The notes under the pieces: model-generated
Database searches by the model: none
What the model saw: the letters and a program-made list of their open reading frames with translations, nothing else
What the model was told of the DNA's origin: nothing
Assembly (NCBI GenBank): GCA_024231025.1
Contig: JAAEQW010000116.1
Location: 1-62,629 of the forward strand
Length of the DNA: 62,629 bases
Reading direction: 5' to 3'
Origin: Candidatus Omnitrophota bacterium
Lineage (GTDB): Bacteria > Omnitrophota > Gorgyraeia > Duberdicusellales > 4484-171
Shown: one piece after another, positions 7,300 through 62,629 of the stretch
Layout of the letters: each line of letters starts with the position of its first letter
Position numbering within the stretch: the stretch's first letter is position 1
Position numbers and translations under genes: made by a program

Positions 7300-7560
7300 A
7301 TCAGCCGCAGGTAAAATCTATTTTTGCGAAGGCTTGATGTCCGGTTCGTCTCCACGCGCGGAGCCGTGGAGTTCTTTGTTGCGGGCATTTTGCTTATCGA
7401 CTTTTCACCGATTACGTTCAAAGGACTCATGTGCGAAGCAACAAATAGCTATTTTACCGGAGGCACCAGCTTACTTCGCTCAGAATACCATGCTTTTAAG
7501 GCCTCAGGGCCTGCCTGCCCGCCGGCAGGCGGGCGGTACATGTCCCCGAGCAACAGACTT
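7300..7560. other. G+C-enriched, strongly self-complementary non-coding island (structured RNA candidate or degenerate repeat cluster)
   Basis: ggtaaaatctattt (7308-7321) is complementary to aaatagctattttacc (7443-7458). Inner hairpin ctccacg...cgtggag (~7349-7370). G+C hairpin gcccgcc-ggca-ggcgggc (7517-7534). cggtacatgtccccg (7534-7548) is an arm of the palindrome found inside the right giant ORF. Track ORFs 7324..7578 and 7334..7642 look like artefacts. Confidence 0.35.
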
Positions 7561-7997: not shown

Positions 7998-8262
7998 GTA
8001 AAATGCAAAACCATAGCGCAAAAGTTAAAACCATGTAAGAATTAAGAATTTCCCGTTTACGGGATCCTATTAAATAAAGCAATAATCAAGTTACAAGTTA
8101 CAATGACCAAACAATAACCAATGATCAAATTTAAATAACCAAACGGTTTGATGATTGAATATTGAAATTTGAAATTTGTTTGCCTGCCCGCCTGCCGGCG
8201 GGTATCTTGTAACTTGTATCTTGTTTTTTGTATTGAGAATGATCAACTTACTACTCATGACT
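7998..8262. repeat. Composite intergenic repeat: partial family-B copy + family-A long hairpin (inverted relative to 13066-13300) with a nested G+C hairpin
   Basis: 7998-8045 resembles family B (gtaaaatgcaaaaccatagcgcaaaag). The reverse complement of 8046-8262 aligns with 13100-13300 (e.g. aaaccgtttggttatt, tcattggttattgtttggtcattgtaactt). 8182-8202 gcctgcccgcctgccggcggg is an extra insertion absent from the 13-kb copy. Confidence 0.8.
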
Positions 8263-13834: not shown

Positions 13835-13870
13835 GTTGCAAGAGACTATAGACCATAGACCATAGACAAG

Positions 13871-13914
13871 AAACAAAATATCCGCCTGCCAATACGGCGG
13901 GTAATTTGTTTTTT
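13871..13914 (+). terminator. Rho-independent terminator-like hairpin after the PEBP gene
   Basis: aaacaaaata-tccgcc-tgccaatac-ggcggg-taatttgtttttt: a G+C stem extended by A/T pairing and followed by a T-run. Preceded by family-C words (gaccatagaccatagac, 13846-13866). Confidence 0.6.
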
Positions 13915-15634: not shown

Positions 15635-15645
15635 TCTTTATAGTA

Positions 15646-15674
15646 GGGGCACAGCGGGCTGTGCCCTTTTTTTA
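15646..15674 (+). terminator. Rho-independent terminator after the tRNA
   Basis: gggcaca...tgtgccc stem followed by ttttttt (15667-15673). Confidence 0.75.
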
Positions 15675-27700: not shown

Positions 27701-27817
27701 CGTGAAGTTGGACAAGGTTATGAATGTGGAATTAGCGTTGGGCTTGACAGTATTGCGCCCGACGATGTTATTGATGTTTTTAATGAGGAAATGGTAGCGC
27801 AACGCCTTAAATCATAG
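24710..27817 (+). CDS. nusA-infB: Single ORF encoding NusA (24710-25906) fused in frame to IF-2 (ATG 25907 onward)
   Basis: GTG start after AGGAGG. NusA N-terminal, S1 and KH domains, an HhH-like region, then [17 protein letters not shown]. No stop precedes [10 protein letters not shown]..., the IF-2 N-terminus. IF-2 G domain [25 protein letters not shown]. The codon-by-codon reading of 25859-25909 confirms the frames are continuous. Confidence 0.9.
25851..25909 (+). other. Poly(A)-rich lysine tract at the nusA/infB junction with an out-of-frame ATGA
   Basis: Three A7 runs (25878-84, 25889-95, 25901-07). In the +1 frame a TGA (25908-25910) overlaps the infB ATG (25907-25909), and that frame is open only back to the TGA at 25854-56. 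Confidence 0.8.
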
Positions 27818-30536: not shown

Positions 30537-30709
30537 AATAAGAATTAAAAAATCAACTAAAAACGAAAAGCTAAAAGCGAAAAACCATAATTAAAAATTC
30601 AAAATTTCTTTCCGGAATAAAGAGTTTATTTATTTTTAAATTTTACGCTATGGCTTTGCGCTTTGCGTTTTTAGGTTTGCGTTAATTTGATACTTATAAC
30701 TTATAACTA
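30537..30709 (-). repeat. Family-B dispersed long-hairpin repeat (copy B2, inverted) between convergent ruvB and lgt
   Basis: Its reverse complement is near-identical to 32830-32960 (gcaaagcgcaaagccatagcgtaaaatttaaaaataaataaactctttattccggaaagaaattttgaatttttaattatggtttttcgcttttag...). Confidence 0.85.
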
Positions 30710-31405
30710 TCAATAATGTTTTCTGGAATTTTTGAAATATAGAAAAGCTCCAGCAATAATACTAAAGATGGAAAAAATTTGCGAGGTAGATAAAAATTCA
30801 ACATAACCGCGCGGATCTTGGCGAAAAAATTCAATGATAAAGCGAAACAGGCCATAAGTAATTAAATAAGCAAACACAAGCGCTCCGTCGAACTTTTTTC
30901 TTCTTCTTAAGATCCAAAAAGTAACAAAAATTACAAAAAGTCCGCATGCTGAGATTAATTGAATGGGGAATACCGCTTCTAATTTACCGTAGCAACAGCC
31001 ATAAAAAAAGCATCCTATTCTGCCAAAAGCATGCCCTAAGGGTACGCCTAAAATGATGATATCGCTGTATTTTAAAAAGTTTATGTTTTTTCTGCGGGTC
31101 AAAAGGTAAATTGTCGTAAGACCTCCAACTACTCCGCCAAAAAATACAAATCCTGCCCGGGCAAAAATCATATTCAGTGGGTTGGTTAGAAAATCTTTAA
31201 ATTCAACTAAAATGTAAAGTAGTCTTGCTCCGAGGAAAGAGAAAATTAGCGACCAGAAAAATATGTCAGAAAAATCATCATACTTTATTCCGACGCGTTT
31301 AGCTTCTTTTGAGGCGATGGCATATCCGGCTAATACCCCTAAAAAAACGCAAAACCCATAAGTGTAAATTGTAAATGGCCCGATTTTACATAATATTGGA
31401 TGCAT
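30710..31405 (-). CDS. lgt: Prolipoprotein diacylglyceryl transferase
   Basis: Polytopic membrane protein with GPFTIYTYG..., GRIGCFFYGCCYG motifs. The only minus-strand gene in the window. Confidence 0.9.
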   Translation of the reverse strand: MHPILCKIGPFTIYTYGFCVFLGVLAGYAIASKEAKRVGIKYDDFSDIFFWSLIFSFLGARLLYILVEFKDFLTNPLNMIFARAGFVFFGGVVGGLTTIYLLTRRKNINFLKYSDIIILGVPLGHAFGRIGCFFYGCCYGKLEAVFPIQLISACGLFVIFVTFWILRRRKKFDGALVFAYLITYGLFRFIIEFFRQDPRGYVEFLSTSQIFSIFSIIAGAFLYFKNSRKHY

Positions 31406-31614: not shown

Positions 31615-32796
<1,182 letters not shown>

Positions 32797-32799
32797 GGA

Positions 32800-32990
32800 T
32801 GGTTTTAAGTTGTAAGAATTAAGTTAGCGCAAAACTAAAAATGCAAAGCGCAAAGCCATAGCGTAAAATTTAAAAATAAATAAACTCTTTATTCCGGAAA
32901 GAAATTTTGAATTTTTAATTATGGTTTTTCGCTTTTAGTTTTTCGTTTTTAGCTGATTTCTTACGACTTACGACTTATCACTTATGACTG
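32800..32990 (+). repeat. Family-B dispersed long-hairpin repeat (copy B3)
   Basis: Collinear with 11150-11340. Flanked by the word repeats gttgtaagaattaagt / cttacgacttacgacttatcacttatgac. Confidence 0.85.
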
Positions 32991-32994
32991 ACAT

Positions 32995-33690
32995 ATGATT
33001 ATTGATATTGTTACTATATTCCCTAAGATGTTTCTTTCGATAGTTGGGGAGTCGATCATTAAAAGAGGTATTGATAAGGGGTTGGTTAAAATCAACCTGC
33101 ATGATTTGCGTGATTACGCTAAAGAGCCGCACAAAAAAGTAGATGCCCCATCTTATGGAGGTGGGGGAATGGTGTTTCGTGTTGAACCGGTCTTTGAAGC
33201 AATAGAAGGTATTTTAGGATGTAGTATTTACCCTGAGAATAAAAAAAATTCCCAGACGAAAGTTGTTTTAATGAGCCCAAAGGGTAGGCAGTTAAATCAA
33301 AAAATGTCGCGATGTTTCTTGAAATATGAGAGATTAATTGTGTTGGCACCCAGATATGAGGGTGTTGATGAGCGCATTAGATATATTGTTGATGAAGAAA
33401 TATCAATTGGTGACTACGTTTTAAGCGGTGGCGAGTTGCCGGCAATGGTTTTTGTTGATTCTTTGGTCAGATTAATTCCGGGTGTTGTTTCAGATCAGGA
33501 ATCAATCAAGTGCGAAAGTTTTGAGAAAAATGCTTTGGATTTCCCACATTATACCCGACCAGAAGAGTTTCGGGGGATAAAGGTGCCTGAAGTGCTGCTT
33601 TCGGGGGATCACGCGAAGATAAATAAATGGCGAGAAGATAAATCTTTAGAAATAACTAAAGAAAAACGACCAGATCTACTACGTAAATGA
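32995..33690 (+). CDS. trmD: tRNA (guanine37-N1)-methyltransferase
   Basis: IVTIFPKMF, PRYEGVDERI, ISIGDYVLSGGELPA and LLSGDHAKI motifs. Confidence 0.93.
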   Translation: MIIDIVTIFPKMFLSIVGESIIKRGIDKGLVKINLHDLRDYAKEPHKKVDAPSYGGGGMVFRVEPVFEAIEGILGCSIYPENKKNSQTKVVLMSPKGRQLNQKMSRCFLKYERLIVLAPRYEGVDERIRYIVDEEISIGDYVLSGGELPAMVFVDSLVRLIPGVVSDQESIKCESFEKNALDFPHYTRPEEFRGIKVPEVLLSGDHAKINKWREDKSLEITKEKRPDLLRK

Positions 33691-33732
33691 GACTTAGACT
33701 TTTTCTTCCTTTGTTGAAAAAGTCTAAGTCTC
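33689..33732 (+). repeat. Perfect 17-bp-stem hairpin, copy 1 (overlaps the trmD stop)
   Basis: gagacttagactttttc (33689-33705), ttcctttgtt loop, gaaaaagtctaagtctc (33716-33732). Confidence 0.9.
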
Positions 33733-33828
33733 ATTTAGAATGAATATGAATAATAATGGTTCGTCCGGCTGCCTAAATACTGGTGAAACTTCTTCGATAT
33801 TTCCCCAGAGCAGCTCGGACATAAATTC

Positions 33829-33871
33829 GACTAGAGACTTTTTCTTCCTTTGTTGAAAAAGTCTAAGTCTC
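33829..33871 (+). promoter_or_regulatory. Same hairpin, copy 2, ending 4 nt before the rplS Shine-Dalgarno
   Basis: 43 nt (agactttttcttcctttgttgaaaaagtctaagtctcatttag) are identical to copy 1. AGGAGG at 33876-81, ATG at 33888. Confidence 0.6.
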
Positions 33872-33887
33872 ATTTAGGAGGTTTAAC

Positions 33888-34239: not shown

Positions 34240-34388
34240 TGAGACCAAAGACCATAGACTTTGTATTTAATGACTGATGAAATTGATAGATAAAAAAATA
34301 AAAAATAGTTTCAAGATGACAATCCAAGAATATTGTTTGGTTTTATTTTAGTTAGGTCTGTTGTCTTTGGTCTATTGTCTATAGTCTA
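34240..34388. repeat. Family-C long hairpin ('gaccaaagac/atagac' words)
   Basis: Left arm gagaccaaagaccatagac (~34241-59) faces right arm ggtctgttgtctttggtctattgtctatagtc (34355-86). The same words occur at 13846-66 and 52682-52743. Confidence 0.75.
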
Positions 34389-34392
34389 AATT

Positions 34393-37224: not shown

Positions 37225-37352
37225 CCAATAACCAAGATGCAAGATACAAACAAATCCCAATATCCAATATCTAATAATCAAAAAATTTGGTTATTTGAAT
37301 TTGGTCATTGGCTATTGTTTGGTTATTGTAACTTGTAACTTGGTTATTCAGT
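37225..37352 (+). repeat. Family-A dispersed long-hairpin repeat (copy A3)
   Basis: caagatgcaagatacaaacaaat...tttggttatttgaatttggtcattggctattgtttggttattgtaacttgtaacttggttatt is collinear with 13150-13260. Confidence 0.85.
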
Positions 37353-40127: not shown

Positions 40128-40312
40128 CGTAAATGCTAAATAACCAAGAAACAAGATACAATAACCAAATAATCACCAAGAACCAAATTTCAATAATCAA
40201 ACGAAATGTTAACTATTAGTTTTATATTTATATAGTATATCTTGTTTGATTATTGGTCATTGGTTATTACTTGTACCTTGTTTCTCGGTTATTGATTATT
40301 TGCTTACAACTA
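40128..40312. repeat. Family-A-type long hairpin (copy A4)
   Basis: aaataaccaagaaacaagatacaataaccaaataatcacc...caataatcaaac faces gtttgattattggtcattggttattacttgtaccttgtttctcggttatt. Confidence 0.8.
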
Positions 40313-52640: not shown

Positions 52641-52681
52641 AAAAGGGGTCAGGTCTAATCCGTACCAGGTGCCAATTAATT

Positions 52682-52743
52682 ATAGACCAAAGACAATAGA
52701 CCAAAGACAATAGACCAAAGACAATAGACCAAAGACAATAGAC
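52682..52743 (+). repeat. Tandem 14-bp repeat (atagaccaaagaca x4.4), family-C words
   Basis: Four perfect units at 52682-52737 plus a partial atagac. No spacers, so not a CRISPR array. Confidence 0.95.
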
Positions 52744-52790
52744 TCCCGCCTTTGGCGGGACAGACGCCGACTAAAGGCCAAAGAGTGGCT
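52744..52790 (+). repeat. G+C-rich palindromic element (tcccgcc-ttt-ggcggga + cagacgccgac)
   Basis: gactcccgcctttggcgggaca is identical over 22 nt to 53911-53932 inside the giant ORF. Confidence 0.85.
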
Positions 52791-53113
52791 TGTTTTGATT
52801 TCTAAAAGAACGTCTGAAAACCGTAAGCGGGCATGGTTTTTTGACGATAGTCAAAAAGAGCGAAGGTTTGAAGCCGAGCGAAAGCCAGCCTCGCTGGGGC
52901 TGGATAAGCGGTTCTGGAAGAAACAAAACAAGACACGAGCAGGGGGTAGATTAGTCGCAGGTGAAAACTATTTTTACTTCTTGTTTTTATTTATTCTTGC
53001 TCAAAAGTATTCTGAACTTACAACTTACGACTTACAACATACGACTGAAATGTAACCGCTTACAAAAAACTCAATAAAATCAAGCATTTCTATGGCATTT
53101 ATCCCGATGAATA

Positions 53114-53209: not shown

Positions 53210-56200
53210 ATGAGAAAAGGAACAACACATTTTAAAGCGATTGCCAGTTTTTTGGCTACTGCAATATTTCTTTCTAGCTTTGCTGTTTATTTTAGCCAAT
53301 TGACAACAAAAAGTTATGCGTCAGTCCTTCCTTATATGCCATCGCCAACAAAATTACTTAAAGTAAGCGATCAATTTAATTATCCGGTTTTATGTGGAAT
53401 AAAGTTTTATCCGCAGGATCCATTCAAATTTGATTTTGTTATTGATAAAAAAGATTCTAATATCGCTGACGGAGAGATTAAAGAAGAAGCCTTAAAGTTG
53501 ATAAGATACTTTTTGTCTTCAGTGGCAATTCCCGAGGATGACCTTTGGGTTAATCTGTCGCCTCATGAGGAGAATTCAGTTATTCCTCACGAACTTGGTT
53601 TAACCGATTTGGGAAAAGATATGTTAGGTGAAGATTATGTTTTAAAACAACTCATGGCGTCATTGGTTTATCCTGAGGAACCGGTTGGTAAGAAATTTTG
53701 GGAGAAGGTTTATGCTCGTGCGTATGAATTGTATGGAACCACTAATATTCCAATTGATACTTTTAATAAGGTTTGGATTGTGCCCAAAACAGCAGTGATT
53801 TATGAAAATGGTAATAGTGCTTTTGTTGGTAAAGCGCACTTGAAAGTAATGCTTGGGGAGGACTACGTTGCCCTTCGACGAGCTCAGGATTCTACACAGC
53901 AACATAGTCAGACTCCCGCCTTTGGCGGGACAAGTGCCGACGATAGATTCCCGCCAAAGACGGGACAGGCGCCGACCAAAGACCAGATAAACAATATTTC
54001 ATCTCAGATAATGCGCGAAGTGGTTTTACCGGTAATTGAAGAGGAAGTCAATCAGGGCGAGCACTTCGCTATTTTGCGCCAAATTTACCATTCTTTAATT
54101 CTTGCAACCTGGTTCAAACGCCGTTTACGGCGTTCAATTGACAGTCTGCGGGGACATGTACCGAAAGCGCAGGCCGAAGGCCGAGAACGGTACGTGTCCC
54201 CGGAAGCAAAGACTAACATCCTAGACAAAATATACATTGATCAGAAGAAGATCAAAGGCATCGAAGGCACGGATCCTCAAATAAAAGATAAAATCTACAA
54301 TCAATACTTAGAAGCTTATAAAAAAGGTGTCTATAACTACATCAAACGCGATTACGACCAGCCTTCAGGCAAGCACGTTAACCGCAGGTATTTTTCTGGT
54401 GGTATGGCAATGCGTATTTTATCAAATATGGAAGTTATAGAGATAGATGAAAACTCTACAGAAAGCATGCCAGTGCCTCAGGCTCCAGTCGGAGGCACTT
54501 TCAATTTACTTGGCGTGGGATCCGGCGGCATTCTTATGAGCCCACCGCCAATACCTCCTGTGCCACCATCAGGAACTCCGCCTGGTTCGCCTTCTGACGG
54601 TCCGCCAAGAGGCGAAGGCGTCATCGCTAGAGTGGAGCGGTTACTTGCAGCTGGTAATTACGAACAAGCAAAAAACATGGCGGTAGATAAAATCAAAACC
54701 AAGGAGATTAGGAGCAAAGAAAAAATTGATCAATGGATGTATAAAATGCTAGGAAGTGCTCAGTGGCCTTGTGCTCGAGCAATAGTAGATGAGGCAATAG
54801 GGGTGGGAATTTTTACTAAAAATGAGATTATCGAATGGGTGGATGAATTAGTAAGGGAAAAGCACATTGACCACGCTCACGTTGTTATGATTGGAGCAAT
54901 AGAGAAAAATATTTTGCCTGGCAATGATGCCGATAAAGAGAAAATTAAAAAATGGATTAGTGATTTGACAGCGGCAAGGCATCCCATCGATGTTGGTCTT
55001 ATTAATCGGGCAATAACGTTAGCAAATGCCTTCAACAAAGATGAAATTATAGTTTGGGTGAATGAATTATTGGCGGAAGGAAGAAAACATGAGGGTACCT
55101 CTTGTGATATTATAGTCGCGGCAATCGAGAAAAAGATTCTAACCGTCGAGGATAAATCAATAATCATAAAATGGTTAGATCCATTAATGGATCAAGGATT
55201 TATTGGTGCAATTTACTTTATTGTATCTGCTGCAATAGAACATGATGTTTTTGATAACGAAGATGTTTCAGAGGCAATTCCAAAACTTGTAGGCGATGAA
55301 GATAGTGCAAAAAAACTCATCACCGAGTATTTCAATAAAAAAGGTTGGCTCCACACCGGTCTTAACCAAGATTGGGCGCAAGTGTTAGCAGGAGAAGACA
55401 TTGAAGAAAAGCTCAAAAACCATCACGATCAATATGTAGAAGTTATTCTAACCCCTGCCGGTGAAGAGCGCACTAAAGCGGCGATGGCCCTGCGGGAATG
55501 GTTGTATTTAGGTGGGAATAATAGCCCAACGCCGCTTACCAAGATTGAACTCGATATTGAGCTTCTTAATATGTACAAACTCCCTTGGGACGATTTCTGC
55601 GAAAAAAGAGCGCGCTTTGGTGATCGCATTTATGATGATCCGGCGGAAGTGGTTGCCGAGCTTATAGGGGGGCATGAATTTGGGGCCGAAGAACAAAAGC
55701 GGATTAGGTTTGTAGAATCGTATCTAGGCGGCAGAAGTTTTTCAGGAACAGTGGAGAGAATGACGGCAGAATATATTGTTGAGGGAAAGATTAAGAGCAA
55801 GGCAAAGATTTTTGAATGGATCGATCGGCTTGGGGATAACACTAGTGTGAAAAGTCTTGTCGATGCGGCCGTAAAAGCTGGAATTATTACATATGCAGAT
55901 AATGTCCGAGTTAAAGCCTGGGTGAACAGATTCTTAACTGACAGGAGATTTGTGGTTTCCTCATGTGACATTCTCCGCACGGCAATAAGGGCGAAGATTA
56001 TAACCAAGGAAGATAAATTAAAAGTTGAAGAATGGATCGACGAGTCTATAAGCCCAGGGAATAGTTTTCTGGTAAGTACTGCGATAACTGAGGCAATTGA
56101 TGGTGAAATTCTAGTTGACCAGGATAAGGAGAAAATTATTAAATGGGCCGATCAGATCGCAGGTTTGGACTACCATAAGGAAAAGGCAGGAGTTGCTCTT

Positions 56201-59200
56201 ATGGCAAAGGTGGGTGTCGAAAAAGAAATATTTAGCAAAAAAGACATTATTGCCTGGTTTGATCGATTGATAGCTGAAGCGCTTTGGGATTATGCCAGTG
56301 CAATTTCTCAGGCAGCGCGTAGTTGTGATCTTTACGATCGGCACGATGCCCTGGAAGCGATTGAGAAATTAAGAGGAGACGATCCAAGCCGGGGCGATCC
56401 AATTGTTTCTTATTTTTTCAATAAAGACATGTGGATCCATACAGGCATTAATGAAACCTGGGCGCAGGTATTGGGCGATCCGAAATTTGAGGAAATGATC
56501 CAAACTCCGCACAAGCAATTTGTTGGGTACCCGCGTGATATGTATAGAAAAGTGATTACTGCCACGGGCGAAGACCGTCTTTTAAAAGCGATGGCTCTAA
56601 GGGAGTGGATGTTCCTGGGAGGGCCTTTGAGTCCTAAGTCATTTCATGAGATTAAGATTGATCCAGTTTTGGTTGACCTCTATCGTTTACGCTGGGACGA
56701 CTTCTGCGAAAAAAGAGCGCGCTTTGGTGATCGGATTTACGATGATCCGGCGGGAGTGGTTGGTGAGCTTATAGCAGGGCACACATTCCCAGATGAGCAA
56801 GATGACCAGTCGCCACCACCATCCGCACCATCTTCGTTACCACCATCCTCAGATTCACCTGTAGTGAGCGAAGTCGAACTACCACAAGGAGGTTCTTCTG
56901 CGGAGGCTAAGCTTATTGTCGAGGTGGATCGGTTGATTGAGGAAGAGAATTTCGATGATGCAAAAAGATTAACAATAGATGGAATAAAGGATGGAACTAT
57001 TAAGGGTAAAACAAAAATTCGAAAATGGGTGAATCAATTGATAGAGAAAAATGCAATAACTCCTGCCAAGGCTATTGCAATCATAGCAATAGAGGCAAAG
57101 ATTTTTACTAAAGATGAGATTACAGAATGGATTGATGGACTATTAGCGAAAGGTGGAGTGGATGTGCGCGTTGTCAGTCCTATTACGTGTACGGCGATAA
57201 AAGCAAAAATCTTAACTCGTGACAACGAAGCGAAGATTGTAACATGGGTGGATGGGTTGGTAAATATAGGTGATAGGTATCTTGCTGGCCTTATCGTTGT
57301 TGCAGCAATCGAGGCAAATATTTTGACTGGTCAAAATAAACTAAAGGTTGAAGAATGGATAGATGAATTAATAAAGGAACGAATTAGGACCGACATTATA
57401 GTCGCGGCAATAAAATCAGAGATCTTAACCCGTGATGACAAACCAAAAATCATAGTATGGATAGATGAATTGGTGAAGAGAGAGGATGACGGAGAAGGTT
57501 GGGGTTATGCCTTTGATATCGCCGTCGCAGCAATAGAGTGCAATGTTCTTGACGGGGTTGATGCGTTGAATGTAATTTCAAAGTTTATAGGTAGTGAGTA
57601 TGAAGAAGAAGTGGGAGGTCTCGTTACTAAATTCCTTGATACTGGCAAATGGTTCCACACTGACGTTCCCCAAGATTGGGCGCGAGTTTTAGATTATCCC
57701 GAGATTGAGAACAGGCTCAAAAACCACTGTGACCAATATACCAAAATTATTCTGACCCCTGCCGGTGAAGAGCGCACTAAAGCGGCAATGGCCCTGCGGG
57801 AGTGGTTGTTTTTAGGTGGGGATGAAAGCTCCAAACCGATTGCAGATATTAAACTCGACATAGAACTCCTTAATATGTACAAACTCCCTTGGGAAAAGTT
57901 CTGCAAACAAAGAGTGCGGTTTAGTGATAATGATATCTATAACCGGCCTAAAGAGGTTGTTGCCCAGCTTGTGGGGGAGAATGCGTTTGAGGGCGGAGAC
58001 AATCCAGAATTAATCGCTAAGATCGATCGGTTGATTGCGCAGAATAAACATCAAGAAGCAAGAATTTTAGTAGTAGAAAAAATTGTAGATTGGGTTGATA
58101 AACTACTAGTAAAAGGAACAATGCACCATAGCGAAGCTATTGCCATTGCAGTAATAAAGCCAGGGGTTTTTACCGATAACGATAAAGGAAAAATTTTAGA
58201 GTGGATGGAACAGTGGAAAGAAAACCATATAAGAGGATTTCGTTTGATAAATATATCCCCAGTAATAGAAGCAAAGATTCTAACCCGCGAAAATGTATCA
58301 AAGATCATGGAGTGGATAGATTTGTTGATAGAAAAGGGAGATTGTTCTTCTGCTAAGGATGTCGCATTTGCAGCAATAGAAGGGAATATTTTCTATACGG
58401 CGGATGCTTTAGGAGTAATTTCAAAATTTACTCATTATAAGAAAGAGTTTGAAGCAAAACAATTTGCCACCGAATTTCTCGATAAGGGTCGATGGCTCCA
58501 CACCGGTCTTAACCAAGATTGGGCGCAAGTATTAATAGGGGCAAACATCGAAAAGAGACTAAAAGACCACCGCGATGAATATATAGAAGTTATTCTAGCC
58601 CCTGCCGGCGAAGAACGCACTAAAGCGGCAATGGCCCTGCGGGAGTGGTTGTTTTTAGGTGGGGACGAGAGATCTAAACTGTTTGCTGAAATTGAACTTG
58701 ATACAGAGCTTCTTGATCTTTACCGCTTACGCTGGGACGACTTCTATTATCAAAGAGCGCGGTTTAGCAATGACGATATCTATAATAATCCTAAAAAGGT
58801 TGTTACCCGGCTTGTGGAGGCGTATGTGTTTGAAAGTGATGAATCGCAGCTTATTATCGGAATTGATCGGTTGATTACACAGAAGAGATATCAAGAGGCA
58901 AGAATTTTAGCAGTTAAAAGAATTGCAGCAGGTGAAATTGCAGACAAAGAAAAGATTGTAGATTGGGTTAATAAATTGCTAGTGAAAGGAGCAAGAGCTC
59001 ACAGCGAAGCCATTGCCGTTGCAGCAATAAAGATAGAGATTTTTACTGAGAACGATAAAGGAAAAATTTTAGAGTGGATGGAACAGTGGAAAGAAAACCA
59101 CATAGGGGGATTTTGTTTGATGAGTGTACCCCCTGCAATAGAAGCGAAAATTTTAACTCGTGACAATAAAACAAGGATTATAGAATGGGTAGATTCGTTG

Positions 59201-62200
59201 ATAGAAAGAAGAGATTATTGTTCTGCCAAGGATGTCACATTTGCAGCAATAGAGGGGAATATTTTCTATGCGGCCGATGCTTTGGTAATTTTAAAACTTG
59301 TTCATTATAAAATAGAGTTTGAAGCAAAACAATTTGCTACCGAATTCCTCGATAAGGGCAAATGGTTCCATACCGATGTTCCCCAAGATTGGGCGCAGGT
59401 GTTAACAGGGGCAAATATCGAAGAGATGCTCAAAGACCACCGTGATCAATATATTGAAGTCATCCTAGCCCCTGCCGGCGAGCAACGCACTCTTCGTGCG
59501 ATGGCCCTGCGCGAGTGGTTGTACCTAGGTGGGAATGAGAGCCCTACAGCACTTAGCGATATCACTCTCGACCCAATCCTCATTGATTTCTACAAACTCC
59601 CTTGGGAAAAGTTCTGCAAACAAAGAGCGCGCTTTGGTGATCGGATTTACGATGATCCGGCGGGAGTGGTTGGTGAGCTTATAGCAGGGCACACATTCCC
59701 AGATGAGCAAGATGACCAGTCGTCACCACCATCCGCACCACCTTCGTTACCACCTCCTTCAGGCCCACCTGTAGTGAGCGAAGCCGAATTATCTCAAGGA
59801 GGTTCTTCTGCGGAGGCTAAGCTGATTACTGAGATTTACAGGTTGGTTGAGACAAGGGAGTATTCAGAAGCAAAAGATTTAGCGGTAAAAGGGATTAAGC
59901 GGGGAGATATCAATAATAAAGAGAAGATTCAAGAATTGGGTATTTGGTTAGCAAAAAAGACTCGATCGACTTCCATTTCAGTTGATGATATCTATCCCAT
60001 TACAGTTGCTGCAGTAGAAGCTAGAATTTTTAATCAAGATGAAATTATGGATTGGGTGGATGAATTTCGAAAAATAGATGATGCAACTGTAGCAAGCAAG
60101 ACTGCCCTTGCCGCAGTGGAAGCTGGAATTTTCAACACAGATGAAATTGTTAAATGGGTTTACAGGTTAACAGTAGAAAGAAGGGGGCAAGGGGGTGCGA
60201 TTGTTGCTTGTCATATGGTTGAGATGTTGATAATGGAGCGTAAACCCTTTAATAATAAAGAAATTATAGAATGGGTGGATATATTACTAGACGCAGAAAG
60301 TCTTTATATTTCTACTGCCATTGTGGTCAGTGCGATAAAAGCAAAGATTTTAACCAGTTACGACAAGACAAAGGTTATGGAGTGGTCGATGCGGTTTTCG
60401 CATGAATCACTCGATGGCAAGATAGTTACTAGCCCTATAGTGGTAGCAGCGATAAATGAGCACATTTTAACTAGCGACGATAAAACAACAGTTCTGGAAT
60501 TGATCGATAAAATAGCAAACGCAAGTAACGTTTTGGATACATTATCGCCTATAGCGGTAGCAGCGATAAATGAGCACATTTTAACTAGCGACGATAAAGC
60601 AACAGTTCTGGAATTGATTGATAAAATAGCAAACGAAAATGACAATTCGGATATATTGTGGCCCATGGTGGCGGCAGCGATTAATAAGCGCATTTTAACT
60701 AGCGACGATAAGGCAAAGGTTGTGGAATGGATTAATAAAAGATTGACCAAGAATGCAATTTTGATCGATCTTCCTTCTAACGAATTTGTCCTTGTGGCCA
60801 AAAAAGAAGAACTGTTTGATTCCAGTGATGTTTTATGGCTGGTTAATAAATATATTGAACATGGGCAAAGAGATCAAGCCATAGAATTCATCATTGAACT
60901 TATTAAAGAGAATCAATGGCTCCACACCGGTCTTAACCAGGATTGGGCGCAGGTGTTGGCAGGAGAAGACATTGAAGAAATGCTCAAGGGTCACCAAGAT
61001 CAATACGCCGAAGTCATTCTAACCCCTGCTGGTGAAGAGCGCACTAAAGCGGCGATGGTCCTGCGAGAGTGGTTGTACTTAGGTGGGGATGAGAGTTCCA
61101 AATCGCTTGCTGAGATTGCACTCGACATTGAACTCCTTGATCTTTATCGTTTGCGTTGGGGTGATTTCTGCGAAAAAAGAGCGCGCTTTGGTGATCGGGT
61201 TTATGATGAGCCGGCGGGAGTGGTTGAGGAGTTTGCCGGAGACCATGAGTTTGAGGGTGATGGAGGCAACCCAGAATTAGTTGCCGAAGTAGATCGATTG
61301 ATTGAGGTAGGGGAATACGAAGAAGCAAAAGATCTCACCACCAAATTACTTGATACTGGCAAATGGCTCCACACCGACGTTTCCCAAAACTGGGCGAAAG
61401 TGCTTGATGATCCAGTAGTTGAAGAGATGCTTAAGCATTACCGTGATGATTATGTGGCGATGATTCTTGCTCCGTCTACCGAGCGTCTCTCTCGGGCGAT
61501 GGCTTTAAAGGAAGCGTGTTACCTTCGGTCAATCGGCCAAGGCGAAAATCCTTCCGACATCAAACTCAGCCGCATCCTTGCACATTTCTACAAACTCCCC
61601 TGGGAAGAGTTTCATAAAGAGAGAATGCGCGATAGTAATAGTATTTATCATGATCCAGAAATGTGGTCTCTCGATATCGCGGATAAGTATGAATATGAGA
61701 GTAGTCAAGATATTCTAGGAGTAATTGCTGAAATTGACCGGATAGTTGCGAAGGAAAACTATAGAGAGGCGAGGATTTTAGCGGTAGGACATATAAAAGC
61801 TGGGAGAATTAATGATAAAACAAAGATTAAATTTTGGGTAGATGAATTGTTGGCTCAAACCGGTAGTTTACATTCTTCAACTAGCGGCAATGCAATCGCG
61901 GTTGCGGCAGTACAAGCAGATCTTTTTACTAAACGAGAAATCCAATCCTGGATAGATGAATTATTGGCTCGGAGTGATGTTGAGAGTACGGCAGGGTGTG
62001 CTCGTGACATTGTAGTTGATGTAATCGAAAGAGATATTTTTACTCAAGAATACAAAGAAGTCATTCAAGCTTGGGTAGGCATAATGTTAGATCGAAGGGA
62101 TGCATTTGGTGCACATGGCAGCTGGGGCATTACGAGTGCGGCAATAGAAAAGGAAATCTTCGGCGCGCCAGAAGTATTGCCGATAATCACAAGACTTCTA

Positions 62201-62629
62201 GATTATTGGGGTGATCATGAGGCAAAAGAACTCATTACTAAATGTTTTGATAAAAACAAATGGCTCCACACTGACGTTCCCCAAGACTGGGCGCAGGTGC
62301 TGGATGATTCAGTAGCTGAAGGTATCCTCAAGCATTACCATGATGATTATACGGCAATGATTCTCGCTCCGTTTGCTGAACGTCTCCCTCGAGCGATGGC
62401 TTTAAAGGAAGCGTGTTACCTTCGGTCAATCAACCAGGTCAAAGATTCTTCCCAAATTGTTCTCGACCCAATCCTCATTGATTTCTATAAACTCCCTTGG
62501 GAAAAGTTTTGCGAACAGAGAGCGCGCTTTGGTGATCGCATTTATGATGAGCCGGCGGGAGTGGTTGGTGAGCTTATAGCAGGGCACACATTCCCAGATG
62601 AACAAGATGACCAGTCGCCACCACCATCC
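53210..62629 (+). CDS. Giant secreted/surface repeat protein, 3'-truncated by the window edge (3140 codons visible, no stop); not in the supplied ORF track
   Basis: I translated this frame codon by codon from ATG 53210 (in-frame TAG at 53174-76 upstream) to base 62629 and met no stop. N-terminal signal/anchor MRKGTTHFKAIASFLATAIFLSSFAVYFSQ...SYA. About 430-aa head domain (LWVNLSPHEEN..., NKVWIVPK..., HFAILRQIYHSLILATWFKRRL). Pro-rich linkers at 54541-54612, 56810-56862, 59720-59772 and 62618 onward. Eight in-frame copies of a ~110-aa W(L/F/I)HT...W(A)..VL...PAGEERTKAAMALREWL.LGG...LPW..FC.KRARFGDRIYDDPAGVV domain, with Trp codons at 55346, 56432, 57650, 58493, 59363, 60917, 61364 and 62261. 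Arrays of ~38-aa AI.AAIEAKILT..DK.KI.EWIDEL helical repeats lie between them. Confidence 0.9.
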   Translation, partial: MRKGTTHFKAIASFLATAIFLSSFAVYFSQLTTKSYASVLPYMPSPTKLLKVSDQFNYPVLCGIKFYPQDPFKFDFVIDKKDSNIADGEIKEEALKLIRYFLSSVAIPEDDLWVNLSPHEENSVIPHELGLTDLGKDMLGEDYVLKQLMASLVYPEEPVGKKFWEKVYARAYELYGTTNIPIDTFNKVWIVPKTAVIYENGNSAFVGKAHLKVMLGEDYVALRRAQDSTQQHSQTPAFGGTSADDRFPPKTGQAPTKDQINNISSQIMREVVLPVIEEEVNQGEHFAILRQIYHSLILATWFKRRLRRSIDSLRGHVPKAQAEGRERYVSPEAKTNILDKIYIDQKKIKGIEGTDPQIKDKIYNQYLEAYKKGVYNYIKRDYDQPSGKHVNRRYFSGGMAMRILSNMEVIEIDENSTESMPVPQAPVGGTFNLLGVGSGGILMSPPPIPPVPPSGTPPGSPSDGPPRGEGVIARVERLLAAGNYEQAKNMAVDKIKTKEIRSKEKIDQWMYKMLGSAQWPCARAIVDEAIGVGIFTKNEIIEWVDELVREKHIDHAHVVMIGAIEKNILPGNDADKEKIKKWISDLTAARHPIDVGLINRAITLANAFNKDEIIVWVNELLAEGRKHEGTSCDIIVAAIEKKILTVEDKSIIIKWLDPLMDQGFIGAIYFIVSAAIEHDVFDNEDVSEAIPKLVGDEDSAKKLITEYFNKKGWLHTGLNQDWAQVLAGEDIEEKLKNHHDQYVEVILTPAGEERTKAAMALREWLYLGGNNSPTPLTKIELDIELLNMYKLPWDDFCEKRARFGDRIYDDPAEVVAELIGGHEFGAEEQKRIRFVESYLGGRSFSGTVERMTAEYIVEGKIKSKAKIFEWIDRLGDNTSVKSLVDAAVKAGIITYADNVRVKAWVNRFLTDRRFVVSSCDILRTAIRAKIITKEDKLKVEEWIDESISPGNSFLVSTAITEAIDGEILVDQDKEKIIKWADQIAGLDYHKEKAGVALMAKVGVEKEIFSKKDIIAWFDRLIAEALWDYASAISQAARSCDLYDRHDALEAIEKLRGDDPSRGDPIVSYFFNKDMWIHTGINETWAQVLGDPKFEEMIQTPHKQFVGYPRDMYRKVITATGEDRLLKAMALREWMFLGGPLSPKSFHEIKIDPVLVDLYRLRWDDFCEKRARFGDRIYDDPAGVVGELIAGHTFPDEQDDQSPPPSAPSSLPPSSDSPVVSEVELPQGGSSAEAKLIVEVDRLIEEENFDDAKRLTIDGIKDGTIKGKTKIRKWVNQLIEKNAITPAKAIAIIAIEAKIFTKDEITEWIDGLLAKGGVDVRVVSPITCTAIKAKILTRDNEAKIVTWVDGLVNIGDRYLAGLIVVAAIEANILTGQNKLKVEEWIDELIKERIRTDIIVAAIKSEILTRDDKPKIIVWIDELVKREDDGEGWGYAFDIAVAAIECNVLDGVDALNVISKFIGSEYEEEVGGLVTKFLDTGKWFHTDVPQDWARVLDYPEIENRLKNHCDQYTKIILTPAGEERTKAAMALREWLFLGGDESSKPIADIKLDIELLNMYKLPWEKFCKQRVRFSDNDIYNRPKEVVAQLVGENAFEGGDNPELIAKIDRLIAQNKHQEARILVVEKIVDWVDKLLVKGTMHHSEAIAIAVIKPGVFTDNDKGKILEWMEQWKENHIRGFRLINISPVIEAKILTRENVSKIMEWIDLLIEKGDCSSAKDVAFAAIEGNIFYTADALGVISKFTHYKKEFEAKQFATEFLDKGRWLHTGLNQDWAQVLIGANIEKRLKDHRDEYIEVILAPAGEERTKAAMALREWLFLGGDERSKLFAEIELDTELLDLYRLRWDDFYYQRARFSNDDIYNNPKKVVTRLVEAYVFESDESQLIIGIDRLITQKRYQEARILAVKRIAAGEIADKEKIVDWVNKLLVKGARAHSEAIAVAAIKIEIFTENDKGKILEWMEQWKENHIGGFCLMSVPPAIEAKILTRDNKTRIIEWVDSLIERRDYCSAKDVTFAAIEGNIFYAADALVILKLVHYKIEFEAKQFATEFLDKGKWFHTDVPQDWAQVLTGANIEEMLKDHRDQYIEVILAPAGEQRTLRAMALREWLYLGGNESPTALSDITLDPILIDFYKLPWEKFCKQRARFGDRIYDDPAGVVGELIAGHTFPDEQDDQSSPPSAPPSLPPPSGPPVVSEAELSQGGSSAEAKLITEIYRLVETREYSEAKDLAVKGIKRGDINNKEKIQELGIWLAKKTRSTSISVDDIYPITVAAVEARIFNQDEIMDWVDEFRKIDDATVASKTALAAVEAGIFNTDEIVKWVYRLTVERRGQGGAIVACHMVEMLIMERKPFNNKEIIEWVDILLDAESLYISTAIVVSAIKAKILTSYDKTKVMEWSMRFSHESLDGKIVTSPIVVAAINEHILTSDDKTTVLELIDKIANASNVLDTLSPIAVAAINEHILTSDDKATVLELIDKIANENDNSDILWPMVAAAINKRILTSDDKAKVVEWINKRLTKNAILIDLPSNEFVLVAKKEELFDSSDVLWLVNKYIEHGQRDQAIEFIIELIKENQWLHTGLNQDWAQVLAGEDIEEMLKGHQDQYAEVILTPAGEERTKAAMVLREWLYLGGDESSKSLAEIALDIELLDLYRLRWGDFCEKRARFGDRVYDEPAGVVEEFAGDHEFEGDGGNPELVAEVDRLIEVGEYEEAKDLTTKLLDTGKWLHTDVSQNWAKVLDDPVVEEMLKHYRDDYVAMILAPSTERLSRAMALKEACYLRSIGQGENPSDIKLSRILAHFYKLPWEEFHKERMRDSNSIYHDPEMWSLDIADKYEYESSQDILGVIAEIDRIVAKENYREARILAVGHIKAGRINDKTKIKFWVDELLAQTGSLHSSTSGNAIAVAAVQADLFTKREIQSWIDELLARSDVESTAGCARDIVVDVIERDIFTQEYKEVIQAWVGIMLDRRDAFGAHGSWGITSAAIEKEIFGAPEVLPIITRLLDYWGDHEAKELITKCFDKNKWLHTDVPQDWAQVLDDSVAEGILKHYHDDYTAMILAPFAERLPRAMALKEACYLRSINQVKDSSQIVLDPILIDFYKLPWEKFCEQRARFGDRIYDEPAGVVGELIAGHTFPDEQDDQSPPPS
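53908..53985 (+). repeat. Two adjacent G+C-rich palindromic elements embedded in frame in the giant ORF
   Basis: tcccgcc-ttt-ggcggga (53914-30) and tcccgcc-aaa-gacggga (53949-65), each followed by ca(a/g)g(t/c)gccgac. They match the intergenic copy at 52741-52775. They encode SQTPAFGGTSADDRFPPKTGQAPTKDQ. Confidence 0.8.
54141..54214 (+). repeat. 15-bp-stem G+C palindrome embedded in frame in the giant ORF
   Basis: cggggacatgtaccg (54149-63) pairs with cggtacgtgtccccg (54188-202), with ggcc-gaa-ggcc in the loop. The right arm plus flank (cggtac.tgtccccg...agact) recurs at 7534-7558 in intergenic DNA. Confidence 0.8.
58025..59375 (+). repeat. Tandem duplication of a ~870-nt (~290-aa) module within the giant ORF
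   Basis: 58025-58500 is collinear with 58865-59375 (gatcggttgatt...caagaagcaagaatttta...aacgataaaggaaaaattttagagtggatggaacagtggaaagaaaacca...). The W.HT codons are 870 nt apart (58493 and 59363). Confidence 0.85.
60434..60775 (+). repeat. Three tandem 114-nt (38-aa) units within the giant ORF
   Basis: Units start at 60434, 60548 and 60662. The first two are near-identical (cctatag.ggtagcagcgataaatgagcacattttaactagcgacgataaa.caacagttctggaattgat.gataaaatagcaaacg). This is the source of the repetitive antisense track ORF 60358..60801. Confidence 0.9.

What the first reader, a model, noticed from the sequence alone, without database searches (positions are those of the whole stretch)
53908..54214. 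Intergenic-type G+C palindromes inserted in frame within the giant protein's head domain (RPE-like behaviour)
Two element types otherwise seen in non-coding DNA lie inside the coding frame.
- Type 1: a tandem pair of tcccgcc-(ttt/aaa)-g.cggga + ca.g.gccgac units (53908-53985). These share 22 identical nt with the intergenic copy at 52741-52762 and encode the low-complexity peptide SQTPAFGGTSADDRFPPKTGQAPTKDQ.
- Type 2: a 15-bp-stem palindrome cggggacatgtaccg...cggtacgtgtccccg (54149-54202). Its arm and flank recur at 7534-7558, and it encodes RGHVPKAQAEGRERYVSPE.

Both interrupt otherwise well-conserved-looking head-domain sequence without breaking the frame. This parallels Rickettsia palindromic elements, which insert in frame into protein genes and add peptide segments.
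Basis: partly seen in the sequence, partly recalled or inferred. Interest (0 to 1): 0.7.

Follow-up and report, generated by a model that had tools for sequence, protein, structure and literature searches.

The report
Intergenic-type palindromes read in frame
Two short G+C-rich hairpin repeats that normally sit between genes in this Omnitrophota genome are translated as part of two floppy loops in the N-terminal domain of a giant protein; this is a known kind of selfish-DNA behaviour, seen here in a new phylum and recurring across one protein family.

Summary
A hairpin unit, TCCCGCC-TTT-GGCGGGA plus a ..GCCGAC tail, occurs twice in the giant ORF (53914-53976) and once in the spacer 1.17 kb upstream, with 23 identical bases. 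A palindrome with 15-bp arms (54149-54202) has a single-arm copy at 7534-7548. Chance expects none of these.

- **Stability:** both coding copies are among the four most stable 60-nt folds of the window.
- **Position:** both lie in predicted disordered loops between helices, at sites that are variable across the domain family.
- **Closest relative with DNA (L155):** its same two loops are built from the ATAGACC/AAAGACA heptamer arrays and hairpin types that are intergenic in this window.
- **Other homologues:** other palindromes, including GTAG-tagged REP doublets, sit in these and other loops. The same DNA is sometimes read in different frames. One element also lies in frame in a pantothenate kinase gene.

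Best reading: REP/REPIN-like intergenic palindromes are captured in frame where the protein tolerates them. They behave like Rickettsia palindromic elements and intragenic REPs, but they are not members of those families. I rate this a new member of a known kind, of moderate interest.

The parts
53210..62629 (+). Giant ORF, 5' part only, running off the window. Its N-terminal head domain (about aa 1-398, nt 53210-54403) has an N-terminal hydrophobic helix.
   Evidence: The head has no Pfam match and 939 homologues, nearly all named Omnitrophota/Omnitrophica. The AlphaFold model has mean pLDDT 67, with no PDB fold match.
53876..53998 (+). Loop 1 (aa 223-263), lying between the conserved DYVAL and SSQIMREV motifs. 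It is hypervariable in all homologues.
   Evidence: Alignment A1. The model shows coil at 232-256 and pLDDT below 50 at 234-247. GC is 0.52-0.62 against 0.39 for the window.
53910..53941 (+). Type 1 unit A: AGAC + hairpin TCCCGCC-TTT-GGCGGGA (53914-53930) + tail CAAGTGCCGAC.
   Evidence: It shares 23 identical nt with 52740-52762.
53942..53976 (+). Type 1 unit B: GATAGAT + hairpin TCCCGCC-AAA-GACGGGA (53949-53965, one C.A mismatch) + tail CAGGCGCCGAC.
   Evidence: It aligns over 47 nt (38 identical) to the intergenic copy with its flanks. Units A and B together fold at -30 kcal/mol.
53971..53989 (+). Remnant of the heptamer array (GCCGACCAAAGACCAGATA) directly after unit B.
   Evidence: the only coding match of the ATAGACCAAAGAC pattern beside the four intergenic arrays. 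Also.
54137..54217 (+). Loop 2 (aa 310-336), lying between WFKRRLRRS and ILDKIYIDQ. Most homologues have no residues here.
   Evidence: The model shows coil at 314-330 and pLDDT below 50 at 318-330.
54149..54202 (+). Type 2 palindrome, 54 nt or 18 codons. It has arms of 15 nt at 54149-54163 and 54188-54202 and an inner hairpin GGCC-gaa-GGCC at 54172-54182.
   Evidence: -38.5 kcal/mol, z -6.0. It is the most stable 60-nt window of the 62.6 kb. All six reading frames are open.
52682..52743 (+). Intergenic tandem array of ATAGACC/AAAGACA heptamers (a 14-mer repeated about 4.5 times) downstream of panB. It runs directly into the hairpin.
   Evidence: (family D14). panB is identified.
52740..52771 (+). 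Intergenic type 1 copy: AGAC + TCCCGCC-TTT-GGCGGGA + CAGACGCCGAC.
52775..52803 (+). Weak terminator-like hairpin (AGGCCAaagagTGGCTT) followed by a T-rich tail, directly after the type 1 copy.
7509..7558 (+). Intergenic composite 300 nt downstream of the 2337-aa HEAT-repeat ORF. It holds hairpins GCCTGCC.../CCCGCC-GGCA-GGCGGG, then a single type 2 arm CGGTACATGTCCCCG (7534-7548) with the flank AGCAACAGACT.
8187..8202 (+). A further CCCGCC-TGCC-GGCGGG hairpin in the spacer upstream of the ribulose-phosphate epimerase gene.
15643..15666 (+). GTAG-tagged hairpin GTAGGGGCACAG-cggg-CTGTGCCC plus a T-run, downstream of tRNA-Met. The same element lies in frame in loop 1 of the homologue in L155.
   Evidence: 14 identical nt, GTAGGGGCACAGCG.
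13841..13912 (+). A second spacer with the same layout: an ATAGACC heptamer array, then the hairpin CCGCC...GGCGG with a T-run.

Best explanation
The two segments are copies of this lineage's small intergenic palindromic repeats. These are REP/REPIN-like G+C-rich hairpins that normally sit, together with A/C-rich heptamer arrays, in the spacers 3' of genes. Here they have become part of the coding sequence of two structurally permissive loops of the head domain.

**Shown:**
- The same nucleotide sequences occur in spacers and in the ORF.
- The coding copies keep the reading frame and contain no stop codon.
- They lie in predicted disordered loops that vary in length across the family.
- Related genes carry other palindromes of the same general type at the same and other loops. 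Units are gained, lost and replaced, and the same DNA is read in different frames.

**Inferred:**
- The copies arrived by a DNA-level event. One route is transposition of hairpin units by a trans-acting HUH tyrosine transposase of the RAYT type. The other is ectopic gene conversion or template switching from a spacer copy.
- Only in-frame, stop-free copies in tolerant loops survive selection.
- The result is 18-27 extra hydrophilic, Gly/Pro/Arg-rich residues that are probably neutral for the protein. It also places a hairpin of -30 to -38 kcal/mol in the mRNA, which the ribosome must unwind.
For: **In the window.**
- Identity between coding and spacer copies is far beyond chance.
- GC is 0.52-0.62 in a window averaging 0.39.
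- The two coding hairpins are among the four most stable 60-nt folds.
- All four perfect G+C stems of at least 7 bp found in coding DNA lie in 53920-54620. The 38 other genes, all housekeeping, have none.
- Both segments are in coil with pLDDT below 50, between helices, at indel-prone columns of the family alignment.

**In the closest homologue with DNA.**
- L155 encodes P0004, about 55% identical.
- Loop 1 is GCCTGCC-ggca-GGCAGG, then an ACCAAAGACCATAGACC... array, then GTAGGGGCACAG-cgtgat-GTGCCC.
- Loop 2 is an ACCATAGACAATAGACCAAAGACC... array.
- These match the window's intergenic arrays at 52683-52726 and the hairpins at 15643 and 50691.

**In other homologues.**
- 10 of 15 rare in-frame insertions fold within the top 2% of same-length windows of their own locus.
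- Extreme hairpins occur at 6.1 per 1000 windows in head domains, 1.2 in other coding DNA and 10.9 in spacers.
- Loop 1 of L145, L146 and L147 holds modular GTAG-tagged hairpins: [A][C], [B][C] and [A].
- L123 carries one element twice, in opposite orientations.
- The element in the L150 head recurs in frame in a Pan_kinase (coaX) gene in L145.
- The GGGGACATG...CGTGTCCCC palindrome is read as RGHVP in L154 and as PGDM in L148 and L140, on identical DNA.
Against: - No transposase is present in the window.
- The source genome could not be retrieved. Copy number and genome-wide distribution are therefore unknown.
- The only type 1 spacer copy is 1.17 kb upstream of the coding copies, in the same gene's 5' spacer. 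That fits local conversion as well as a dispersed family.
- There are no target-site duplications.
- The type 1 and type 2 elements lack the GTAG/CGTC tags of the described REP superfamilies.
- In one homologue subfamily the loop DNA is more conserved than synonymous sites of the domain. That could mean selection on the nucleotide sequence rather than neutrality.
- The core hairpin CCCGCC-TTT-GGCGGG occurs in many phyla. Part of the cross-genome resemblance may therefore be convergence on a stable hairpin.
Confidence: 0.7

Rival explanations
1. The hairpins are functional nucleic-acid elements selected within head-domain mRNAs or DNA. Possible roles are translational pausing during membrane targeting of the N-terminal anchor, mRNA stabilisation or processing sites, or recombination hot spots among head-domain paralogues. 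On this view they are not neutral passengers.
For: - In L153, L154, L148 and L140, about 22 nt (CAA(A)CGCCAACCAGGGGACATG) and other loop stretches are nearly identical. Synonymous sites of the conserved domain are only 44-55% identical. The left arm is read in two different frames.
- The same T.G (U.G) wobble, on the sense strand, is kept in the window, L154, L148 and L140 (sequences).
- Inner stem bases differ between copies but stay complementary.
- Hairpins are about 5 times denser in head domains than in other coding DNA.
Against: - Only 11 of 32 homologue loci have an extreme hairpin in the head.
- Positions vary across at least six sites, and the sequences belong to several unrelated types.
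- The same elements occur in spacers and in an unrelated enzyme gene.
- The synonymous-site comparison is biased, because identical residues in an unconstrained loop are mostly unchanged codons.
- There is no Rfam match.
Confidence: 0.15
2. The copies arose without any transposition. Local ectopic gene conversion, or replication template switching between the gene's own upstream spacer and the loop, produced them. The similarity to other genomes reflects inheritance of an old loop module plus convergence on stable hairpins.
For: - The type 1 partner is only 1.17 kb away, in the same gene's 5' spacer. It is 23/23 identical to unit A, while the surrounding heptamers in the ORF are degenerate.
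- The loop flip TTT/AAA between units A and B is the signature expected of intrastrand template switching in a hairpin (inference).
- P0066 has the same hairpin in the same loop and frame.
- There are no target-site duplications and no transposase.
Against: - The type 2 partner is 46.6 kb away.
- Related elements sit in different loops, frames and orientations, and in an unrelated gene, in other genomes.
- Modular gain, loss and replacement of units occurs among related genes.
Confidence: 0.25
3. The heptamer arrays and hairpins in the loops act as a slippage-prone tract. This would make the surface-exposed head loops hypervariable, or make the gene phase-variable.
For: - 7-nt tandem units lie in frame in the loops of L155, and remnants lie in the window's loops.
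- Loop lengths vary widely among homologues.
Against: - The coding arrays are short and imperfect.
- In the window only one or two degenerate units remain.
- There is no evidence of length polymorphism.
- A perfect array would hit an in-frame TAG within 14 codons, which follows from the sequence itself.
Confidence: 0.05
4. The resemblance is a chance or compositional coincidence, or reflects conservation of the peptide.
For: The core hairpin is common in many phyla.
Against: - Zero matches are expected in shuffles.
- The flanks beyond the hairpin also match.
- The nearest homologues lack these peptides.
- The same DNA is read in different frames.
Confidence: 0.03

Closest known systems
Rickettsia palindromic elements (RPE; Ogata et al. 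2000 and 2002, as summarised in PMC10969869 and PMC3733652)
   Same: - Palindromic repeats found both between genes and in frame inside genes.
- They add a peptide segment at a structurally tolerated place.
- They occur in a low-GC genome.
   Different: - RPEs are about 100-150 bp, specific to Rickettsia, and found in dozens of unrelated genes per genome.
- The elements here are 28-54 nt with unrelated sequence, in Omnitrophota.
- In this window they are confined to one gene.
Intragenic REPs, GTAG- and CGTC-tagged palindromic repeats (Di Nocera et al. 2013, PMC3733652), and REP doublets/REPINs mobilised by RAYT transposases (Bertels and Rainey 2011, from my own knowledge)
   Same: - G+C-rich stem-loops of 20-40 bp, mostly 3' of genes.
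- They are often paired in opposite orientation.
- They are sometimes entirely inside ORFs, where dimers encode 20-30 residues. Opitutus terrae, a PVC relative, is the richest case.
- Type 2 is a doublet in the ORF and a singlet in the spacer.
- Homologues L145-L147, L149 and L155, and the window hairpin at 15643, carry true GTAG-tagged units.
   Different: - Type 1 and type 2 lack a GTAG or CGTC tag next to the stem.
- No RAYT gene is known for them.
- They are embedded in heptamer arrays.
- They recur in one protein-domain family.
Bacterial MITEs (review PMC10969869)
   Same: Type 2 has terminal inverted repeats and no coding capacity of its own. MITEs can also create in-frame fusions.
   Different: - 54 bp is below the usual 70-300 bp.
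- There is no target-site duplication.
- There is no related insertion sequence.
Mobile G+C clusters of yeast mitochondrial genomes, including in-frame copies in var1 (from my own knowledge)
   Same: G+C-rich palindromic clusters scattered through an A+T-rich genome, tolerated in frame in a variable protein.
   Different: They belong to an organelle of a eukaryote, with unrelated sequences. This is an analogy only.
Intrinsic transcription terminators
   Same: A G+C-rich hairpin 3' of genes. The spacer copies sit in terminator regions.
   Different: The coding copies, and the type 1 spacer hairpin itself, are not followed by a T-run.

Membership tests
Rickettsia palindromic elements (RPE) | A repeated palindromic element present both in non-coding DNA and in frame within ORFs | tested here: met
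   The frame is continuous.
Rickettsia palindromic elements (RPE) | Length of about 100-150 bp and membership of the RPE sequence families of Rickettsia | tested here: not met
   The units are 28-35 nt (type 1) and 54 nt (type 2). The homologues are Omnitrophota. Sequences were not compared directly with RPE consensus sequences.
Rickettsia palindromic elements (RPE) | Insertion in many unrelated genes of the same genome | tested here: not met
   In the window only the head domain is affected. There are no comparable hairpins in the 38 other genes. A related element does occur in a coaX gene in locus L145. The whole genome was not available.
Rickettsia palindromic elements (RPE) | The encoded segment lies at a structurally tolerated, surface or loop position | tested here: met
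   Both segments are in coil with pLDDT below 50, between helices, and at variable alignment columns. The model confidence is only moderate.
REP / REPIN (GTAG- or CGTC-tagged) | A short (20-40 bp) G+C-rich imperfect palindrome | tested here: met
REP / REPIN (GTAG- or CGTC-tagged) | A conserved GTAG or CGTC tetranucleotide next to the stem | tested here: not met
   Direct reading of 52740-52771, 53910-53976, 54140-54210 and 7509-7558 finds no consistent tag. The tag is present in the window hairpin at 15643 and in the coding hairpins of L145-L147, L149 and L155.
REP / REPIN (GTAG- or CGTC-tagged) | Located mainly 3' of ORFs, often as inverted doublets, with singlets also present | tested here: met
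   The spacer copies are 100 nt after panB and 300 nt after the 2337-aa ORF. Type 2 is a doublet in the ORF and a singlet at 7534. The hairpins of units A and B are mutually inverted.
REP / REPIN (GTAG- or CGTC-tagged) | A cognate RAYT (HUH tyrosine transposase) gene in the genome, flanked by the repeats | not testable with these tools
   None is among the window's genes. The source genome was not retrievable.
REP / REPIN (GTAG- or CGTC-tagged) | High copy number genome-wide | not testable with these tools
   Only 62.6 kb is available. It holds 3 type 1 units, 3 type 2 arms and 2 further CCCGCC hairpins.
MITE | Terminal inverted repeats | tested here: met
   Type 2 has 15-bp arms. Type 1 has none beyond its own stem.
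MITE | A target-site duplication flanking the element | tested here: not met
   The flanks GACAGTCTG and GAAGCAAAGAC contain no direct repeat.
Intrinsic terminator | A hairpin immediately followed by a T/U-run | tested here: not met
   The tails are caagtgccga, caggcgccga and gaagcaaaga. The scan lists none on the + strand in the ORF.

The most novel reading that the evidence does not exclude
The loops of this Omnitrophota-wide N-terminal domain are not just tolerant dumping grounds. On this reading they are maintained landing pads, or functional nucleic-acid modules. A heptamer-array-plus-hairpin cassette would be kept at the nucleotide level, independently of reading frame. It would be exchanged between spacers and coding loops, and would serve the mRNA or DNA of these secreted or anchored proteins. 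Possible roles are paced translation during membrane targeting, or recombination hot spots that shuffle heads onto different C-terminal bodies, including giant proteins.
Probability: 0.15. Interest if true: 0.8.

Novelty: new member of a known kind. Interest (0 to 1): 0.55.

Why it matters
- **New phylum.** In-frame palindromic repeats are best known from Rickettsia and a few REP-rich bacteria. Finding the behaviour in Omnitrophota extends it to a phylum known almost only from metagenomes.
- **A concrete model system.** The behaviour recurs in one uncharacterised N-terminal domain that heads hundreds of proteins, giant ones included. This offers a defined system for asking how selfish or regulatory hairpins enter and persist in genes.
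- **Practical consequences.** Such segments inflate apparent protein divergence. They create low-complexity loops that mislead domain annotation and structure prediction. They also mark positions in the head domain where insertions are tolerated.
- **An unreported layout.** Spacer-type heptamer arrays found together with the hairpins inside coding loops did not turn up in the papers I searched.

Tried and rejected
- **Species-genome scan.** Matches came from many phyla, mostly outside ORFs. The core hairpin is too generic to locate the source genome, so this was a poor use of the scan.
- **Exact-protein look-ups.** Look-ups for window genes (panB, enolase) and for the nearest homologues P0001 and P0088 found nothing. 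The source contig and the closest genome stayed out of reach.
- **Metagenome scan.** It returned only relatives of 34-47% identity.
- **Database searches with no result.** Rfam, at gathering and relaxed thresholds, gave nothing beyond a chance mir-92 match far below threshold. Pfam has no family for the head domain or the rest of the giant protein. Foldseek against PDB gave no match with E below 0.1.
- **G+C-rich linker after the head (54440-54680).** A k-mer search found no repeat partners elsewhere in the window.
- **Stop codons as the reason for the frame.** I considered whether stop codons force the frame that is used. All six frames of type 2 and four of six frames of type 1 are open, so frame choice is not explained by stops alone.
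- **Synonymous-site comparison.** I treat the comparison as suggestive only, because of ascertainment bias.
Full report
**What is in the sequence**

The finding lies in the first 1 kb of a very large ORF that starts at ATG 53210 and runs off the end of the window, more than 3100 codons.

Type 1 consists of two 35-nt units.
- Unit A is AGAC + TCCCGCC-TTT-GGCGGGA + CAAGTGCCGAC (53910-53941).
- Unit B is GATAGAT + TCCCGCC-AAA-GACGGGA + CAGGCGCCGAC (53942-53976).
- An 18-nt probe for the hairpin finds exactly three places in the window: 52744 (intergenic), 53914, and 53948 on the other strand with two mismatches. No match is expected in shuffles.
- Unit A and the intergenic copy share 23 identical bases.
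- Unit B plus its flanks aligns without gaps to the intergenic copy over 47 nt, with 38 identities. This includes the flanks GAC.ATAGA and .AAAG.CCA. The score is 29 against 9.8 +/- 1.9 for shuffles.

Type 2 is a 54-nt palindrome (54149-54202).
- It has 15-nt arms forming 14 Watson-Crick pairs plus one T.G.
- The arm CGGTACATGTCCCCG recurs exactly at 7534-7548, with a similar right flank.
- The related hairpin CCCGCC-N3-4-GRCGGG occurs at five sites in the window (7518, 8187, 52745, 53915, 53950), against zero expected.

As RNA the two coding segments fold at -30 kcal/mol (z -4.1) and -38.5 kcal/mol (z -6.0). In a scan of all 60-nt windows, the type 2 fold is the most stable in the 62.6 kb and the type 1 fold is the fourth most stable. 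The other two of the top four are intergenic. The one small correction is that the unit spacing is 35 nt.

**Setting in the genome**

- The window has 39% G+C.
- It carries housekeeping genes, including enolase, dxr, ispG, nusA/infB, ruvB, tgt, trmD, guaA, dnaE, hisS, aspS, recO and panB. Almost all are on the + strand. No transposase is present.
- About 89% of the window is coding. Perfect G+C-rich stems of at least 7 bp occur eight times in spacers and four times in coding DNA. All four coding cases lie in 53920-54620 of the giant gene.
- The type 1 spacer copy sits about 100 nt downstream of panB, in the 570-nt spacer before the giant gene. It is preceded by 4.5 perfect copies of the 14-mer ATAGACCAAAGACA, which is two 7-nt units. 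It is followed by a weak terminator-like hairpin.
- The same heptamer arrays occur in three other spacers. At 13841 the array is again followed by a hairpin with a T-run.
- The coding copies are also flanked by degenerate heptamers: ...CATAGTCAGAC before unit A, GATAGAT before unit B, and GACCAAAGACCAGATA after unit B. In loop 2 the flanks are ATTGACA and AAAGACT.
- What lies in the ORF is therefore a piece of the spacer module, heptamers plus hairpins, and not just a hairpin.

**Setting in the protein**

- The first ~400 residues have no Pfam match.
- They have 939 homologues at E <= 0.001. Nearly all of those that carry a name are from Omnitrophota/Omnitrophica. The domain is fused to many different C-terminal parts.
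- The alignment shows strongly conserved blocks: LWVNLSP, DY.LKQ, TFNKVWI.P, LRQ.Y..LILA.WFK and YFSGG.
- Type 1 (aa 233-259) falls in a linker between DY.AL and S.I.RE..LP that is non-conserved and of variable length in every homologue.
- Type 2 (aa 314-332) falls between WFK..L..S and Y.DQ.KIKG. Most homologues have no residues there, while the nearest subfamily has 14-47 variable residues.
- The nearest homologues (P0001 to P0004, 50-57% identical in alignment A1) do not contain these peptides.
- An AlphaFold2 model (mean pLDDT 67) places both segments in coil with pLDDT below 50, between long helices.
- No solved structure resembles the fold.
- Removing the 54-nt palindrome removes exactly 18 codons.

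**Related genes from other genomes**

I obtained DNA for 36 homologous loci.

1. *L155 is the closest homologue for which DNA was available (P0004, about 55% identical).* Its two loops are built from the very sequences that are intergenic in the window.
   - Loop 1 is GCCTGCC-ggca-GGCAGG, then ACCAAAGACCATAGACCAGAGACCATAGACCAA, then GTAGGGGCACAG-cgtgat-GTGCCC.
   - Loop 2 is ACCATAGACAATAGACCAAAGACCAAAGACCAAAAAG.
   - These align over 45-51 nt with the window's spacer array at 52668-52726. They share 14 nt with the GTAG-tagged hairpin after tRNA-Met at 15643, and an 11-mer with the hairpin at 50691.

2. *Rare insertions are mostly strong hairpins.* Across the family, 10 of 15 rare in-frame insertions, at six different positions of the domain, fold within the top 2% of same-length windows of their own locus. 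Most are G+C-rich.

3. *Head domains are enriched in extreme hairpins.* Over 32 loci, extreme hairpins (z <= -3.5) occur at 6.1 per 1000 windows in head domains, 1.2 in other coding DNA and 10.9 in spacers. By my count from the list, that is about 19 against 24 separate sites, in 51 kb against 285 kb. They are present in 11 of the 32 loci.

4. *The units are modular.* Loop 1 has three different compositions.
   - L145: [GTAGGGGCGAATAATCATTCGCCC][AGACGCGATAAATCGCGTCTCTAC].
   - L146: [GTAGAGACGTGATTCATCACGTCTC], followed by the same second unit.
   - L147: the first unit only.

   L123 has one element twice, in opposite orientation, in two loops.

5. *The window's own motifs recur elsewhere.*
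   - P0066/L153 has CCCCGCCTTTGGCGGGGCAAGC in loop 1, in the same frame (PAFGG).
   - P0034/L154 has GGGGACATGTTCCCC...GGGGTACGTGTCCCCAAGCA (RGHVP...YVSP) in loop 1 rather than loop 2.
   - L148 and L140 have the same arms with other spacers, read as PGDM...VSPS.
   - The 22 nt CAA(A)CGCCAACCAGGGGACATG are thus translated in two different frames.

6. *An unrelated enzyme gene is also hit.* An ~80-nt palindrome with the type 1 core (TCGATACA-TCCCGCC-nnn-GGCGGGA-CACTC...TGTATCGA) lies in a rare insertion of the L150 head. It also lies in frame inside a type III pantothenate kinase gene in L145. Both sides of that gene align to solved CoaX structures.

**Interpretation**

These results show that the conserved entity is DNA, not peptide. 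Hairpin units of the spacer type have repeatedly become part of permissive loops of this domain.

The closest described phenomena are the intragenic GTAG/CGTC REPs of Di Nocera et al. (PMC3733652) and the Rickettsia palindromic elements (summarised in PMC10969869). [quoted passage not shown] Opitutus terrae, a relative in the PVC group, is the richest case for GTAG repeats.

Type 2 has the doublet/singlet pattern of REPINs: two inverted arms in the ORF and one arm in the spacer. Type 1 and type 2 fail the tag criterion of the REP superfamilies and the size criterion of RPEs and MITEs. They have no target-site duplication. I therefore file them as a new family of a known kind, not as members of those families. 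They are not terminators either, since no T-run follows them.

**What remains open**

The copying mechanism is inferred, not shown.
- *Transposase route.* A RAYT-type transposase acting on single-stranded hairpins is the textbook candidate. None is in the window, and the source genome could not be found.
- *Local conversion route.* Local gene conversion or template switching is a serious alternative for type 1. Its only partner is in the gene's own upstream spacer, 1.17 kb away. The perfect 23-nt identity contrasts with degenerate surroundings. Units A and B differ by a flipped loop.
- *Functional element.* A functional RNA or DNA role cannot be excluded.
  - For it: in one subfamily the loop DNA is better conserved than synonymous sites of the domain, though that statistic is biased. 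A sense-strand U.G wobble is kept in copies from five different loci.
  - Against it: hairpins are absent from two thirds of the homologous loci. They vary in type and position. They also occur in spacers and in an unrelated gene.

I found no report of this in the papers on Omnitrophota giant proteins that I read. Those papers note only that the N-terminal regions lack identifiable domains.

**Verdict**

The feature is real. It is best described as REP/REPIN-like spacer palindromes, together with heptamer-array remnants, translated in two disordered loops of an Omnitrophota-specific head domain. It is a new member of a known kind. It is of moderate interest because the behaviour is recurrent and family-wide, and because the nucleotide-level conservation across reading frames is unexplained.

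Noticed in passing
window 13841-13876, 34240-34260, 34352-34389 (- strand), 52682-52740; also 8080-8128, 13149-13261, 37226-37345, 40145-40297: Many spacers are filled with A/C-rich arrays of 7-nt period. One type is ATAGACC/AAAGACA. Other families look like CAAGATA and TTGGTCA/TTGGTTA. They are often next to a G+C hairpin. The function is unknown, and the same array type is translated in the loops of the homologue in L155.
   Followed up: partly
window 11159-11334 (+), 30539-30720 (-), 32789-32976 (+): A dispersed intergenic repeat of 170-182 nt, 88-90% identical, in three copies and both orientations (D13/I1/I2).
   Followed up: no
window 24710-27817: One ORF of 1035 aa matches NusA domains (N, S1, KH, HHH) followed by IF-2 domains. 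This is either a nusA-infB fusion or a lost stop. A Lys/Glu-rich A/G-rich low-complexity repeat (family D20) lies at 25843-25908, inside this ORF.
   Followed up: no
window 33684-33737 and 33835-33876: A perfect 22-bp-stem palindrome downstream of trmD, with a second related copy 110 nt further on. At -30.6 kcal/mol it is one of the most stable folds in the window.
   Followed up: no
window 54117-54134, 54472-54499, 54588-54620: Three more perfect G+C stems in the giant gene. One lies inside the conserved WFKRRLRRS helix. Two lie in the G+C-rich Pro/Gly linker after the head domain. No partners were found elsewhere in the window.
   Followed up: partly
L145 10001-11000, L146 10001-11000, L147 10001-11100: Loop 1 of three related head genes is built from interchangeable GTAG-tagged REP units read in frame (SVGANNHSPV, KQDAINRVST, GRDVIHHVS). 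L147 also has the first unit in two neighbouring long ORFs.
   Followed up: partly
L145 4623-5405: A type III pantothenate kinase gene carries an in-frame palindrome of about 80 nt, encoding ...VECRAPLDTSRPWRDTRGARCIE.... It is shared with a head-domain insertion in L150 from the same sample series.
   Followed up: yes
loci L002, L111 and others: The hairpin TCCCGCC-TTT-GGCGGGA is the centre of larger palindromes, such as GTCATTGCGAG...CGAAGCAATC and GTCATCCTGAG...CGAAGGATCC, on contigs from other phyla (L002 is titled an uncultured Melioribacter sp.), often inside long ORFs. It may be a very widespread hairpin core.
   Followed up: no
window 55100-62629: The body of the giant protein is made of diverged internal repeats, with DNA copies 60-95% identical and spacings of roughly 840-2900 nt. 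A 114-nt tandem repeat occurs three times at 60434-60775. There is no Pfam match.
   Followed up: no
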